From the IMG/VR virus record IMGVR_UViG_3300029450_000024: a stretch of DNA of 4,733 bases. One strand, written 5' to 3'. This document shows positions 1 through 4,733 of this stretch, in pieces. The stretch's first letter is position 1. Every line of letters starts with the position of its first letter. The notes under the pieces are model-generated. The model did not search any database. It was not told the origin of the DNA and saw only the letters and a program-made list of their open reading frames with translations. The position numbers and the translations under genes were made by a program. The DNA is from a virus. Taxonomy: Duplodnaviria > Heunggongvirae > Uroviricota > Caudoviricetes.

Positions 1-69
1 CGGTGGAGCTGCATGACAAAGTCATCGGGCATTATCTGAACATAAAACACTATCAATAAGTTGGAGTCA

Positions 70-227: not shown

Positions 228-252
228 AATATGTACCTCCGGTGTACATATT
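228..252. promoter_or_regulatory. Operator-like palindrome AATATGTAC-N7-GTACATATT (OR1-like), overlapping the cro RBS/transcript start and the -10 of the leftward promoter
   Basis: Inverted repeat with 9-bp arms (228..236 and 244..252) around a 7-bp spacer, read directly from the sequence. Same core as the 281..299 palindrome. Confidence 0.55.
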
Positions 253-1029: not shown

Positions 1030-1057
1030 TTGACAATGTACCTTTGAGATACATAAT
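1030..1057 (+). promoter_or_regulatory. PL-like strong sigma70 promoter driving the rightward early operon
   Basis: -35 TTGACA (1030..1035), 16-nt spacer, -10 CATAAT (1052..1057), placed immediately after the terminator. Confidence 0.6.
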
Positions 1058-1073: not shown

Positions 1074-1264
1074 ACGAACAGGCAGGACGCCCACGAAGTA
1101 GCCGCCTAGGGCATATGAAGTCCAGGATGATTCGTTGAGTCATGTTGTGCCACCAGGCAATCATGTTAAAGCAGGTGTATGAAATGAAAGTCCAGATTTT
1201 AAACAATAACTGTGAAGTCGTTTGGGCGTAAAACATGACCGCGCGTAGACCAAGGGAGGAAAAA

Positions 1265-1441
1265 GTGGGAATAGTTAGAAATCAAGCAGATATATTGAAA
1301 ATCAGCTCTGAATTACTTGGAGTTTTGAAAAGTGAGCTCACCGCACATGGCATCGAGCCCACTGACGAAAACTTAAGTTGGGTTTTGTCGATTATTCAAC
1401 AATCACTCAAGCCCAGCCTCAGCAAACTTTTTATCGAGTAG
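1265..1441 (+). CDS. Hypothetical small protein (58 aa), first ORF downstream of the PL-like promoter
   Basis: GTG start at 1265, 5 nt after a strong AGGGAGG Shine-Dalgarno (1253..1259); stop TAG at 1439..1441. No recognisable domain and no arginine-rich N-like motif. The provided ORF's ATG at 1235 has no RBS. Confidence 0.4.
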   Translation: MGIVRNQADILKISSELLGVLKSELTAHGIEPTDENLSWVLSIIQQSLKPSLSKLFIE

Positions 1442-1594
1442 TGCTTCGAACTTATCGTAAAGCTTGCTTATGTCGTCTATCGGGTTTTCTGACGTACTGT
1501 AATTTTTATCTGATGTCATGGCAGCAGTCTGATATGCAGTGTGAGTCTTAACCGATAGTTGGAATAAATAAAGAATTTTTTCTTCTTTGGTCAT
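1403..1594 (-). CDS. Hypothetical small acidic protein (63 aa), convergent with and overlapping the 3' end of the 1265..1441 ORF
   Basis: Minus-strand ATG (rc of 1592..1594) preceded by AAGGAAA about 7 nt upstream; the provided ORF's further-upstream start has no RBS. Product MTKEEKILYLFQLSVKTHTAYQTAAMTSDKNYSTSENPIDDISKLYDKFEALLDKKFAEAGLE has no transmembrane segment. Confidence 0.4.
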   Translation of the reverse strand: MTKEEKILYLFQLSVKTHTAYQTAAMTSDKNYSTSENPIDDISKLYDKFEALLDKKFAEAGLE

Positions 1595-1810
1595 AACTAT
1601 TTCCTTCTTGGCTATATGAAAACACCAAGATACCACCGAGCCTGAAGTGGTGAAAAGACAGGCACATAACAGCTAAGTATTTTCAACCAAAGAGAATCCT
1701 TAGCGTTGTGGTGAATGCGGCTCAGCGCACGCGGGTTAAGGTTGAGGCTGACAGTCGACCTTCTGTGGATACCCACCCGTCTGGTGTGCAACCTTCGCCA
1801 GGCACCGGGA

Positions 1811-1831
1811 GGCACCCGGCACCCGGCACCA
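1811..1831. repeat. Tandem heptamer repeat GGCACC(C/A) x3, with a further GGCACC copy at 1801..1806
   Basis: Direct reading: GGCACCC (1811..1817), GGCACCC (1818..1824), GGCACCA (1825..1831), inside a GC-rich non-coding island. Confidence 0.6.
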
Positions 1832-1855
1832 CAACTTTATGCTGTGTGTAGTCCT

Positions 1856-1902
1856 GGCGGTACCAGTTTGTACCCTTGCTTCCGGCTGGTACCGTCCTTT
1901 TT
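1856..1902 (+). terminator. Terminator-like hairpin (tL1-like) upstream of the yfdP homolog
   Basis: Stem CGGTACCAG (1858..1866) pairs with CTGGTACCG (1886..1894), extendable by G1857-U1895 and G1856-C1896; 19-nt loop; then C + TTTTT (1898..1902). Plus-strand only. The long loop makes its efficiency uncertain. Confidence 0.45.
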
Positions 1903-2039
1903 ACAAAACAGAGAAGAGCATCACCGGACGACGGGCTCATAACCCAATCCATCCGGGCGGCTGCCACCGCAGGTGTTCTTCTCTGTTTTGTGGAGAAACT
2001 AATCGGCCTTGCAGGGTCGATATGATGAGGAGCAGCAAA

Positions 2040-2467: not shown

Positions 2468-3292
2468 ATGTCTCAGAACTTAGACGCAACCGCAATTAAT
2501 CAAATCCATGCCCTTATTTCTGCTCAGGGTGTTAATGAAATTATCAGTAAGATTGGTGCCGATGCTGTGGCATTGCCTGAGAATTTCCGCATTCATGATC
2601 TGGAAAAATTTAATTTAAATCGCTTCCGTTTCCGTGGTGCGCTTTCCACTGCCAGCATCGATGACTTTACCCGTTATTCTAAAGATCTTGCAGATGAAGG
2701 CACCCGCTGCTTTATCGATGCTGATAATATGCGTGCCGTCAGTGTGCTTAACCTGGGTACTATTGATGAACCAGGTCACGCAGATAACACCGCCACTCTC
2801 AAACTGAAAAAGACAGCACCGTTCTCTGCTCTGTTGTCTGTTAACGGCGAGCGTAACTCCCAGAAGTCACTGGCAGAATGGATTGAAGACTGGGCCGACT
2901 ACCTTGTGGGCTTTGATGCTAATGGTGACGCCATTCAGGCAACAAAAGCGGCTGCGGCAGTCCGTAAAATCACAATTGAAGCGAACCAGACTGCTGATTT
3001 TGAAGACAATGACTTCAGCGGCAAACGCTCCCTGATGGAGTCTGTCGAAGCGAAGACCAAAGACATTATGCCAGTGGCATTTGAATTTAAATGCGTTCCG
3101 TTTGAAGGCCTGAAAGAACGTCCATTTAAATTACGACCCAGCATTATCACTGGCGATCGTCCTGTACTGGTTCTGCGCATTATTCAGCTGGAAGCGGTGC
3201 AGGAAGATATGGCTAACGAATTTCGTGATCTGCTTGTTGAGAAATTCAAAGACAGCAAAGTAGAAACCTTTATTGGTACTTTCACCGCCTGA
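2468..3292 (+). CDS. yfdQ: YfdQ-like protein (DUF2303 family by recall), 274 aa
   Basis: Long intact ORF; ATG about 7 nt after GTGAGGA. Matches by recall the K-12 CPS-53 YfdQ length and N-terminus ([12 protein letters not shown]...). Confidence 0.85.
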
Positions 3293-4614: not shown

Positions 4615-4733
4615 TGGAGCCATACAGCCTGAACCGCCCCGGGTTTCCTGGAGAGTGTTTTATCTGTGAACTCAGGCTGCCAGATCATCGTTTCCGATGG
4701 AAGCATAATAAGCTTTTTCTGCTTCTGCCGGAG
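4614..4733 (+). CDS. Partial CDS (N-terminal 40 codons, continues beyond the window), hypothetical protein with a CxxC motif
   Basis: ATG at 4614 overlaps the yfdT stop (TAATG); GAGGTG Shine-Dalgarno at 4603..4608. Open to the window end: MEPYSLNRPGFPGECFICELRLPDHRFRWKHNKLFLLLPE... Confidence 0.5.
   Translation, partial: MEPYSLNRPGFPGECFICELRLPDHRFRWKHNKLFLLLPE

What the first reader, a model, noticed from the sequence alone, without database searches (positions are those of the whole stretch)
1265..1594. Convergent, 3'-overlapping pair of small ORFs immediately downstream of PL
A 58-aa plus-strand ORF and a 63-aa minus-strand ORF each have a good RBS and overlap by 39 bp at their 3' ends (1403..1441). 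Convergent overlapping small genes in the early region of a prophage are typical of accessory cargo such as superinfection exclusion, anti-defence or toxin/antitoxin-like pairs. The arrangement also enforces mutual antisense interference. Neither product has an obvious known fold, so function is open.
Basis: inference. Interest (0 to 1): 0.5.

Follow-up and report, generated by a model that had tools for sequence, protein, structure and literature searches.

The report
Paired small genes in prophage sieB slot
Both small convergent ORFs are real, always-linked genes that sit where phages P22 and lambda carry their sieB exclusion gene, behind the same conserved antisense-RNA region, so they are probably an uncharacterised exclusion gene and its partner.

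Summary
A (+, 1265-1441, 58 aa, GTG start, GGGAGG ribosome-binding site) and B (-, 1594-1403, 63 aa) overlap by 39 nt at their 3' ends.

Both are genuine genes. About 14 diverged lineages (E. coli, Kluyvera, Serratia, Klebsiella, Edwardsiella phages) keep both frames open. Properly aligned dN/dS is 0.04-0.38. Among 174 fetched loci, A-domain and B profiles hit exactly the same 84, always convergent, overlapping by 12-39 nt.

The main result lies just outside the given coordinates. The roughly 80 nt upstream of B (1589-1672) is more conserved than either gene. It precedes about 20 unrelated small cargo families in phage contigs. It also matches the region upstream of sieB in lambda and P22, including the 3' part of the published P22 sas antisense RNA.

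So B occupies the sieB slot: opposite to PL and convergent with the first PL gene. A is that first PL gene, and its transcript must run antisense through B.

My inference, not shown here: B is expressed in the lysogen and may exclude other phages, and A is its early-expressed cognate partner or antidote. No fold or family match gives either protein a biochemical function.

The parts
1030..1057 (+). PL-like sigma-70 promoter (TTGACA-16-CATAAT). It overlaps a repressor-operator-like 17-mer, TGTACCTTTGAGATACA, at 1037-1053.
   Evidence: Promoter scan gives 11 of 12 matches. The 17-mer recurs at 232-248 and 282-298 between the cI-like and cro-like genes. It lies just after the cI terminator at 1002-1021. 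The same layout is seen in SfV and SfII.
1163..1231 (+). A 22-codon stub identical to the 5' end of SfV orf33 (MLKQVYEMKVQILNNNCEVVW...), followed by a stop. It marks the left recombination junction of the A-B cassette.
   Evidence: Comparison of the SfV orf33 translation and DNA with the window.
1265..1441 (+). Gene A: 58 aa, GTG start, GGGAGG at 1254-1259. It is the first intact gene on the PL strand. Predicted two-helix hairpin, acidic (pI 5.2).
   Evidence: Homologues are 58-59 aa and start at this position. dN/dS is 0.05-0.37. It matches PHROG 15476. AlphaFold2 pLDDT is 74. PGAP does not annotate it in strain 81.
1403..1594 (-). Gene B: 63 aa, ATG start, AAGGA ribosome-binding site. Soluble and acidic (pI 5.0), predicted two-helix hairpin. 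It sits in the position that sieB holds in lambda and P22.
   Evidence: Annotated as WP_000159356.1 and as SfII_36. It matches PHROG 2605. dN/dS is 0.04-0.38. Only 16 representative clusters exist among 1.84 billion proteins, all 48-94 aa. AlphaFold2 pLDDT is 76.
1403..1441 (.). The 39-nt 3' overlap of A and B, including both stop codons.
   Evidence: Coordinates. Overlap length across relatives is 39, 36, 33, 27, 24 or 12 nt, always convergent.
1589..1672 (+). sas-like antisense scaffold on the PL strand. Its 5' part is complementary to B's start codon and ribosome-binding site. Helix H1 is TCTTGG 1606-1611 with CCAAGA 1625-1630. Helix a is CCAC 1633-1636 with GTGG 1647-1650. Helix b is GCCTG 1640-1644 with CAGGC 1659-1663. 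The a-b-a'-b' order gives a pseudoknot topology.
   Evidence: A 35-nt core is 94% identical to lambda 34394-34428 and to P22, just upstream of sieB. It aligns with the published 127-nt P22 sas RNA (PMC13397905 Table 2; alignment). Compensatory arm variants are listed. The core motif is unique in the window, with 0.01 matches expected by chance.
1627..1635 (-). Candidate extended -10 promoter element for B (TGgTATCTT on the minus strand). This is an inference.
   Evidence: 11 of 13 scaffolds found without using this motif keep TGnTAT(C/T)(T/C)T. SfV keeps TATCCT even though its H1 arms differ. P22 and lambda lack it and use an annotated PsieB further downstream. The consensus promoter scan did not report it.

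Best explanation
A and B are a co-inherited two-gene accessory cassette (about 1229-1631). It has been swapped into the sieB slot of an SfII/SfV-type prophage.

Shown: both are protein-coding genes under purifying selection. They always occur together, convergent and overlapping at their 3' ends. B is preceded by the conserved region that lies upstream of sieB in lambda and P22, and that region contains the scaffold of the P22 sas antisense RNA. A is the first intact gene downstream of the repressor-controlled PL. No terminator-like site lies between PL and the scaffold, so a PL transcript carrying A continues antisense through all of B and through the scaffold.

Inferred: in the lysogen PL is shut, and B is made from its own promoter, probably the extended -10 inside the scaffold. 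B would then act as a prophage-expressed accessory factor, most likely excluding or aborting heterologous phages, as SieB does. When PL fires, on induction or fresh infection, the A mRNA with its long anti-B 3' region and sas-like end would stop B translation. A protein, whose domain is found only alongside B, would act as B's cognate partner, most simply an Esc-like antidote that protects the phage from its own B.
For: Both genes are real:
- Homologues exist down to 37-40% identity with intact frames.
- dN/dS is 0.04-0.38 on aligned codons.
- In same-length pairs, the non-overlapping parts give 0.09-0.53 for A and 0.05-0.42 for B.
- The alternative frames are full of stop codons.

Strict linkage:
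- A-domain and B profiles hit the same 84 of 174 loci, with none carrying only one of them. All pairs are convergent.
- The cassette sits next to different repressors and different early-left genes: yfdP, rdgC and others.
- It is present in 63 of 5426 complete E. coli genomes, always at full length.

Cassette swap:
- SfV has orf33 plus an unannotated 81-aa antisense cargo gene at the same place.
- The window retains a 22-codon orf33 stub.

sieB-slot identity:
- The scaffold matches lambda and P22 just upstream of sieB. There sieB is convergent with N or gene 24.
- The published P22 sas sequence covers the same block.
- sas switches SieB translation during P22 lytic growth (PMC12197685).

Generality:
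- The same scaffold precedes about 20 unrelated cargo families.
- Where the overlap is short, each cargo family has its own partner family or domain. These are optionally fused to shared N-terminal modules: PHROG 1744, or a ClpX-type zinc finger.

PL:
- The promoter overlaps an operator-like repeat.
- No + strand terminator-like site lies between 1058 and 1680.
Against: - Nothing was measured here. There are no expression data for A, B or a small RNA in this prophage.
- Neither protein matches any family of known function, defence-system model, solved structure or fold.
- B is unrelated to SieB and has no conserved internal start for an Esc-like product.
- Strict A-B co-occurrence could be a by-product of physical linkage. 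Overlapping 3' ends and flanking recombination hot spots would produce it without any functional coupling.
- The scaffold helices are short, and single-sequence folding is no better than shuffled sequence (z about -0.5). Wobble pairs do not discriminate between the strands.
- B's promoter is only a motif and fell below the consensus scan threshold.
- This copy lies in an IS-disrupted prophage remnant.
Confidence: 0.5

Rival explanations
1. Linkage only. A and B are both functional but unrelated in function. A is an ordinary early-left gene and B is an independent moron. They travel together only because their 3' ends overlap and recombination occurs at the conserved flanks, namely the sas scaffold and the upstream module boundary.
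For: Exchange junctions fall in conserved flanks: the orf33 stub and the scaffold. N-terminal modules of the partner proteins are shuffled independently of the cargo. In lambda and P22 the convergent neighbour of sieB is the antiterminator N or gene 24, which is not known to be functionally tied to SieB.
Against: The A-domain is retained with B across lineages where the proteins have diverged to about 40% identity and synonymous sites are saturated. There are 0 exceptions in 84 loci. The overlap length changes (12-39 nt), so the junction itself is evolvable. The A-domain occurs as a free-standing gene with its own ribosome-binding site and also as a fusion, yet never without B. Other short-overlap cargo families also have private partner families.
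Confidence: 0.2
2. A toxin-antitoxin or addiction-type pair that stabilises the prophage, with no role in phage exclusion. One protein is toxic, and the other protein, or the antisense RNA, neutralises it.
For: The pair is small, strictly linked and evolves as a unit. Antisense RNA control of a small ORF resembles type I systems. The prophage remnant in strain 81 has kept the pair intact despite IS damage on both sides.
Against: Both proteins are hydrophilic or only mildly hydrophobic, acidic helical hairpins with no transmembrane segment. They give no hit to PADLOC, Pfam or NCBIfam toxin or antitoxin models. The genes are convergent rather than an autoregulated operon. A is repressed in the lysogen if it depends on PL, which is the wrong logic for a constitutive antitoxin.
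Confidence: 0.13
3. A regulatory pair for the phage's own lysis-lysogeny or induction decision. For example, B would damp early-left expression or a host factor in the lysogen, and A would relieve it.
For: The pair lies between the repressor gene and the early-left operon. B transcription converges on PL, so it could interfere with it. In Salmonella ST64B, two genes downstream of CI rise with lytic induction (PMC7067206).
Against: The slot holds about 20 unrelated cargo families in otherwise similar phages, and SfV manages with a different pair. That is typical of dispensable accessory cargo, not of core regulators. Neither protein shows a DNA- or RNA-binding signature.
Confidence: 0.12
4. A is the antiterminator of this phage, the positional equivalent of lambda N or P22 gp24. 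B alone is the cargo.
For: A occupies the place of N or gene 24: first PL gene, convergent with the sieB-slot gene. A strong terminator-like hairpin lies downstream on the PL strand at 1856-1904.
Against: A has no arginine-rich motif: 5 K+R in 58 residues, pI 5.2. It is predicted to be a folded helical hairpin rather than disordered. It is replaced by unrelated proteins in SfV and other phages that share the same downstream region. It co-varies with the cargo, not with the downstream operon.
Confidence: 0.03
5. One or both ORFs are chance reading frames, and only an RNA is functional.
For: PGAP annotates only B. Both are short. The window has 52 ORFs of at least 30 aa.
Against: Both frames are intact in all lineages, with dN/dS well below 1 in the non-overlapping parts and several stops in the alternative frames. 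The start position is conserved.
Confidence: 0.02

Closest known systems
P22 / lambda sieB-esc-sas superinfection-exclusion locus (Ranade and Poteete 1993, as summarised in PMC12197685, PMC7067206 and PMC10883804; sas sequence in PMC13397905)
   Same: - The position is the same: a gene on the strand opposite to PL, convergent with the first PL gene, and 3' ends that abut (lambda), lie 20 nt apart (P22) or overlap (here).
- The upstream block is the same. A 35-nt core is 94% identical, with an equivalent H1 hairpin carrying compensatory changes.
- That block is part of the PL-strand sas antisense RNA that covers the start of the slot gene.
   Different: - B (63 aa, soluble) is unrelated to SieB (184 aa in lambda).
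- There is no conserved internal start that could give an Esc-like product. The candidate antidote here is a separate convergent gene (A).
- In P22 and lambda the annotated PsieB lies about 40 nt further downstream, in an insertion that is absent here. B's promoter must therefore lie inside or upstream of the scaffold.
- Expression and exclusion were not tested for this locus.
Prophage defence genes with cognate self-immunity next to the repressor (the BstA/aba type; recalled from my own knowledge of Owen et al. 2021, not checked here)
   Same: A lysogen-expressed accessory gene close to the immunity region, paired with a phage-encoded element that spares the phage itself.
   Different: BstA is a large protein and its antidote is a DNA element inside the gene. 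There is no sequence relationship to A or B, and no PADLOC hit.
Type I toxin-antitoxin loci with convergent or overlapping antisense RNAs (txpA/ratA, ralR/ralA; recalled from my own knowledge)
   Same: A small ORF whose mRNA is fully complementary to a convergent transcript, located in a prophage.
   Different: Type I toxins are usually small hydrophobic or nuclease proteins, and the antitoxin is only an RNA. Here the convergent transcript also encodes a protein under purifying selection, and B is hydrophilic.
Lambdoid 'morons' (autonomously expressed accessory genes inserted between core genes)
   Same: B has its own upstream control region, is flanked by conserved sequence, and is replaced by unrelated genes in sister phages.
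   Different: This is not a free-standing promoter-gene-terminator unit. It shares one conserved antisense scaffold with many other cargo genes and comes with a cargo-specific convergent partner.

Membership tests
sieB-slot accessory gene (positional and regulatory class defined by P22 and lambda sieB) | Lies on the strand opposite to PL and is convergent with the first PL gene | tested here: met
   B (1594-1403, -) faces A (1265-1441, +), which follows PL at 1030-1057. In lambda, sieB 34482-35036 (+) faces N 35438-35037. In P22, sieB faces gene 24.
sieB-slot accessory gene (positional and regulatory class defined by P22 and lambda sieB) | Preceded by the conserved block found upstream of sieB | tested here: met
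   Window 1632-1666 matches lambda 34394-34428 and P22 at 94% over 35 nt, E = 3e-6 in 2.3 Gb.
sieB-slot accessory gene (positional and regulatory class defined by P22 and lambda sieB) | Expressed from the prophage in the lysogen and excludes superinfecting phages | not testable with these tools
   No expression or phenotype data are available. This remains an inference.
SieB protein family | Sequence similarity to SieB | tested here: not met
   No Pfam, NCBIfam or PADLOC hit for B. The PHROG hit is family 2605, of unknown function. B is 63 aa; lambda SieB is 184 aa.
SieB protein family | In-frame internal start producing Esc | tested here: not met
   B's only internal Met (position 26) is Leu in the Edwardsiella homologue and lies in a gapped region in L051.
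sas antisense RNA (P22) | Sequence homology to the published sas RNA, on the PL strand, complementary to the start of the slot gene | tested here: met
   The P22 sas sequence contains ...CGAGAACCACCGAGCCUGACGUGGUUAAAAGACAGGCACA.... Window 1625-1666 reads CCAAGATACCACCGAGCCTGAAGTGGTGAAAAGACAGGCACA.
sas antisense RNA (P22) | Conserved secondary structure | tested here: inconclusive
   Compensatory arm variants exist for H1 (at least 7 arm pairs) and for helix b (GCCUG/CAGGC, GCCCG/CGGGC, GCCGGG/CCCGGC). However, most sequences were retrieved with a pattern that fixes some arms. The MFE z-score is -0.5 to -0.6. No covariance model or controlled covariation test was run.
sas antisense RNA (P22) | A discrete small RNA made during lytic growth that switches translation | not testable with these tools
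   This needs a Northern blot or RNA-seq of an SfII-type lysogen.
Type I toxin-antitoxin | Small hydrophobic or membrane toxin, with an antitoxin that is RNA only | tested here: not met
   B has GRAVY -0.56 and A has +0.21. Both are acidic helical hairpins. A is under protein-level purifying selection.
Type II toxin-antitoxin | Co-directional two-gene operon with recognisable toxin or antitoxin domains | tested here: not met
   The genes are convergent. No domain hits were found.
Lambda N-type antiterminator (considered for A) | Small basic protein with an N-terminal arginine-rich RNA-binding motif | tested here: not met
   A has pI 5.2 and 5 K+R in 58 residues. The upstream MTARRPREEK extension is not conserved.

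The most novel reading that the evidence does not exclude
The sas scaffold is not a P22 curiosity. It would be the common control element of a widespread modular system in enterobacterial temperate phages. In that system a lysogen-expressed cargo gene, drawn from about 20 or more unrelated and uncharacterised families, sits opposite PL. The scaffold-bearing PL transcript silences it at the RNA level. A cargo-specific domain of the convergent first PL gene neutralises it at the protein level. A-B would be one such new exclusion-plus-self-immunity pair, and the slot would be a rich, unannotated source of small anti-phage effectors and their antidotes.
Probability: 0.3. Interest if true: 0.8.

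Novelty: new variant of a known kind. Interest (0 to 1): 0.6.

Why it matters
If the model holds, it turns a 30-year-old single-phage observation (P22 sieB/esc/sas) into a general, recognisable architecture. A short conserved DNA motif would then flag lysogen-expressed accessory genes, together with their likely self-protection partners, in thousands of enterobacterial prophages. Nearly all of these genes are currently 'hypothetical' or, like A here and the SfV cargo gene, not annotated at all.

This would give a cheap way to mine new small exclusion or abortive-infection proteins and their inhibitors. It would also provide a test bed for combined RNA-level and protein-level self-immunity.

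If only the conservative part holds, the finding is still a useful correction of annotation: gene A and the sas-like element are missing from RefSeq, and a probable non-gene is called at 1708-2025.

Tried and rejected
- **Family and structure searches for A and B.** Pfam, NCBIfam, PADLOC, PDB sequence profiles and Foldseek against PDB gave nothing significant. PHROGs gave only unknown-function families.
- **Exhaustive profile search with B.** It found only 16 short representatives and no fusion to a known domain.
- **Rfam.** The only match in the window, at E up to 1, was a sub-threshold STnc100 hit at 1683-1904. Nothing was found at the scaffold.
- **Single-sequence RNA folding of the scaffold, on either strand.** It is no better than shuffled sequence. 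I therefore do not claim thermodynamic support.
- **Wobble-pair counts to decide the strand of the helices.** There were too few to be informative.
- **MAFFT alignment of 18 scaffolds (A5).** Variable loops put helix arms out of register, so I did not run the count of structure pairs or build a covariance model on it. The helix evidence rests on my alignment-free arm tabulation.
- **The consensus promoter scan.** It did not find a promoter for B. The extended -10 is my own reading.
- **'Cargo-specific partner domain' for cargo families with long overlaps.** I first read the partner analysis this way for families such as the Zn-ribbon cargo (168-nt overlap). I rejected it there, because the partner ORF is mostly the antisense frame of the cargo gene. 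The claim is kept only for short-overlap families.
- **One pair (L001 against L012).** It gave pN/pS of about 1. This is an indexing artefact from a one-codon length difference. The properly aligned value is 0.33.
- **Literature searches for a description of this cassette system.** They found only the P22 sieB/sas work and reviews. Absence from the held library does not prove novelty.
Full report
**Setting**

The window is 100% identical to E. coli strain 81 (NZ_CP088131) and about 98% identical to Shigella phage SfII. It is the immunity and early-left region of an SfII/SfV-type prophage. In order, it contains:
- an IS1-truncated cro-like gene (70-228, -);
- a LexA/S24-type cI repressor (316-990, +; Peptidase_S24 E = 1.5e-26);
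- its terminator (1002-1021);
- a PL-like promoter, TTGACA-16-CATAAT, at 1030-1057;
- then yfdP, yfdQ, yfdR, yfdS and yfdT.

The promoter overlaps a 17-mer (TGTACC..N..ATACA, 1037-1053) that recurs twice in the cI-cro intergenic region. This fits a repressor-controlled PL.

**The observation**

- A runs 1265-1441 on the + strand: GTG start, 58 aa, with GGGAGG 5 nt upstream.
- B runs 1594-1403 on the - strand: ATG start, 63 aa, with AAGGA upstream.
- They overlap at 1403-1441, 39 nt.

PGAP and the SfII record annotate B only. A PHROG family (15476) exists for the 68-aa extended form of A. However, homologues are 58-59 aa and start at the position of GTG 1265, so the 58-aa form is the gene.

**Are they genes?**

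Protein searches found B relatives down to 64% identity and A relatives down to 64%. A tblastn search found a 40%-identical B in Edwardsiella phage EPP-1. At that locus the gene convergent with B and overlapping it by 33 nt encodes a 121-aa protein. Its last 51 residues are 41% identical to A.

Further loci from genomes and IMG/VR gave about 14 distinct lineages: E. coli, Kluyvera, Serratia, Klebsiella, Edwardsiella and metagenomic phages. In every one, both frames are open and convergent. The Buttiauxella locus L013 keeps only a short A-like frame.

Nei-Gojobori dN/dS on aligned codons is 0.05-0.37 for A and 0.04-0.38 for B, with synonymous sites often saturated. Restricting to the non-overlapping parts gives similar ratios for same-length pairs. 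The other two frames of each gene carry 2-10 stops. Both are protein-coding genes.

**Linkage**

- 84 loci contain the A-domain and 84 contain B, and they are the same 84.
- The two are always on opposite strands.
- The overlap is 39 nt (61 loci), 27 (12), 33 (5), 24 (4), 36 (1) or 12 (1).

Many of these loci are redundant E. coli copies or the same contig fetched twice, so the independent evidence is the roughly 14 lineages.

The pair sits beside different repressor types and different early-left genes: yfdP in E. coli and Klebsiella, rdgC in Kluyvera and EPP-1. In complete E. coli genomes the cassette is rare (63 of 5426) and always full length.

**The cassette was swapped in**

SfV shares the flanks but carries orf33 (98 aa, +) after PL. 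The window keeps the first 22 codons of orf33 (1163-1231), followed by a stop. On the other side, identity with SfV resumes inside the conserved block upstream of B. SfV also has its own unannotated 81-aa minus-strand gene there, overlapping orf33 by 83 nt. So a pair consisting of the first PL gene and a convergent cargo gene has been exchanged as a unit.

**The key finding: the block upstream of B**

When I lined up the 200 nt upstream of B in 12 lineages, the last 75-80 nt before the ATG were nearly invariant, even between phages whose A and B proteins are only 40% identical.

In these, the motif is followed, at a fixed short distance after a ribosome-binding site, by about 20 unrelated small ORF families. 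None of the ten representative cargo families I scanned has a known function or a PADLOC hit.

A blastn search against phage genomes placed the core of the block in lambda (34394-34428), P22, HK620 and many others. In lambda and P22 it lies just upstream of sieB. There sieB is on the strand opposite to PL and convergent with N or gene 24, with 3' ends abutting in lambda and 20 nt apart in P22.

A 2026 RNA-seq paper gives the P22 sas antisense RNA as a 127-nt PL-strand sequence. It starts opposite the sieB start codon and runs through exactly this block...UUUCUCGCUGUAGGGGUACACGAGAACCACCGAGCCUGACGUGGUUAAAAGACAGGCACAAUCUUU... (PMC13397905). According to reviews of Ranade and Poteete's 1993 work, sas pairs with sieB mRNA and switches translation from SieB to Esc, which lets P22 escape its own exclusion system (PMC12197685; PMC7067206). 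[quoted passage not shown]

**Anatomy of the element in the window (PL strand, 1589-1672)**

- The 5' part is complementary to B's start codon and ribosome-binding site.
- Hairpin H1 is TCTTGG 1606-1611 with CCAAGA 1625-1630.
- Helix a is CCAC 1633-1636 with GTGG 1647-1650.
- Helix b is GCCTG 1640-1644 with CAGGC 1659-1663.
- The a-b-a'-b' order gives a pseudoknot topology.

Across relatives, H1 appears as:
- UCUUGG/CCAAGA;
- UUCUCG/CGAGAA (P22, lambda);
- CUCCAU/AUGGAG;
- UCCUG/CAGGA;
- UGCUGG/CCAGCA;
- CCUUUUA/UAAAAGG (SfV);
- UUCU/AGAA.

Helix b appears as GCCUG/CAGGC, GCCCG/CGGGC and GCCGGG/CCCGGC.

These compensatory changes argue for a structured nucleic acid, with three caveats. Most sequences were collected with a pattern that fixes some arms. 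Single-sequence MFE is not better than shuffles (z about -0.5). I did not obtain a clean alignment for a controlled covariation test.

On the B strand the block contains TGgTATCTT, an extended -10. It is kept in 11 of 13 scaffolds found without using the motif, and in SfV as TATCCT although H1 differs there. I take it as B's likely promoter, which would give a leader of about 30 nt. P22 and lambda lack it and have an annotated PsieB in a roughly 40-nt insertion downstream. This promoter assignment is an inference.

**What A is**

The proteins convergent with the various cargo genes are modular.

Many begin with a shared module: PHROG 1744 (MDKQEPKII...), a ClpX-type C4 zinc finger (PF06689, E = 1e-6), or an EPP-1-type module. 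They end in a domain that goes with the cargo:
- the A-domain (PHROG 15476) occurs only with B;
- PHROG 23433 occurs only with a 78-aa cargo family;
- another domain occurs only with a 71-aa cargo family;
- distinct 60-64-aa partners go with two further cargo families.

The window's A is the bare A-domain with its own start.

For cargo families with long overlaps (83-197 nt), the 'partner domain' is largely the antisense frame of the cargo gene, so I do not count those.

A is acidic (pI 5.2), has no arginine-rich motif and is predicted to be a helical hairpin. It is therefore not an N-like antiterminator despite its position.

**What B is**

B is a soluble, acidic 63-aa helical hairpin. It is unrelated to SieB. 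Its family has only 16 representative clusters in 1.84 billion proteins, all 48-94 aa. No fold or family match was found.

**Mechanism proposed**

Shown:
- B is in the sieB slot, behind the sas/PsieB block.
- A is the first PL gene.
- No terminator-like site lies between PL and the block on the + strand. A PL transcript encoding A is therefore complementary to the whole of B's mRNA and ends in, or passes through, the sas-like scaffold.

Inferred, by analogy with P22:
- In the lysogen PL is repressed and B is made.
- When PL fires, the anti-B RNA blocks B translation.
- A protein deals with pre-existing B, or otherwise works with it.

I rate the structural and positional part as very likely. 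I rate the 'exclusion effector plus antidote' part at about even odds or less. The main rival is that A and B are linked only physically.

**Comparison and novelty**

The kind is known: the sieB/sas locus of P22 and lambda, and more generally prophage morons with self-immunity.

What differs here:
- the cargo protein is new;
- the putative antidote is a separate convergent gene rather than an in-frame Esc;
- the promoter arrangement differs.

What seems not to be described in the held literature is that the sas scaffold is shared by many unrelated cargo genes with private partners. I cannot exclude prior description elsewhere.

**Verdict**

This is a new variant of a known kind, of moderate to high interest. 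Function remains untested.

Noticed in passing
window 1683-1904 (+): A structured GC-rich region gives a sub-threshold Rfam STnc100 match (30 bits against a gathering score of 47, E = 8e-4). It ends in a 13-bp hairpin plus U-run at about 1856-1904, an intrinsic-terminator-like site on the PL strand before yfdP. MFE z is -1.8. A 2026 preprint relates STnc100 to the PasD prophage sRNAs. PGAP calls a 'frameshifted hypothetical protein' (1708-2025) and SfII calls SfII_35 over this region, which is probably not coding.
   Followed up: partly
window 1-66 and about 4615-4733: The window starts inside an IS1 terminal repeat that truncates the cro-like gene (70-228, -). It ends at an IS3-family element. 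In strain 81 the prophage is an IS-riddled remnant next to tRNA-Thr/proA.
   Followed up: partly
L003 (SfV, U82619) 3123..2878, minus strand of the locus: An unannotated 81-aa gene (MTFDEKELDNAINK...) sits behind the same sas-like scaffold. It is convergent with orf33 and overlaps it by 83 nt. Homologous cargo (PHROG 3311) occurs in IMG/VR contigs paired with orf33-like partners.
   Followed up: partly
L005 (GCA_050769255) 4303-5391: Two tandem cassettes follow PL, each with its own scaffold copy (4878-4895 and 5372-5391). The first is a 108-aa partner with a 69-aa Zn-ribbon cargo, and the second is the A-B pair. The slot can therefore be iterated.
   Followed up: no
IMG/VR loci L053-L172: Partner proteins of several cargo families carry a ClpX-type C4 zinc finger (PF06689) or the PHROG 1744 module at the N-terminus. 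These modules are shuffled independently of the cargo-specific C-terminal domain. The function of the modules is unknown.
   Followed up: partly
window 232-248, 282-298, 1037-1053: Three copies of a 17-bp partially palindromic TGTACC-N5-(G/A)(G/T)TACA motif are likely operators of the cI-like repressor at OR and OL. The cI reading frame (224 aa) is intact although cro is truncated.
   Followed up: partly
P22 (L174 2540-2600) and lambda (L173 1240-1285): Between the scaffold hairpin and the sieB start, P22 and lambda carry a roughly 40-nt insertion with a direct repeat of CCCCTACAG that contains the annotated PsieB -10. It looks like a duplication that moved the promoter relative to the majority scaffold type.
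   Followed up: no
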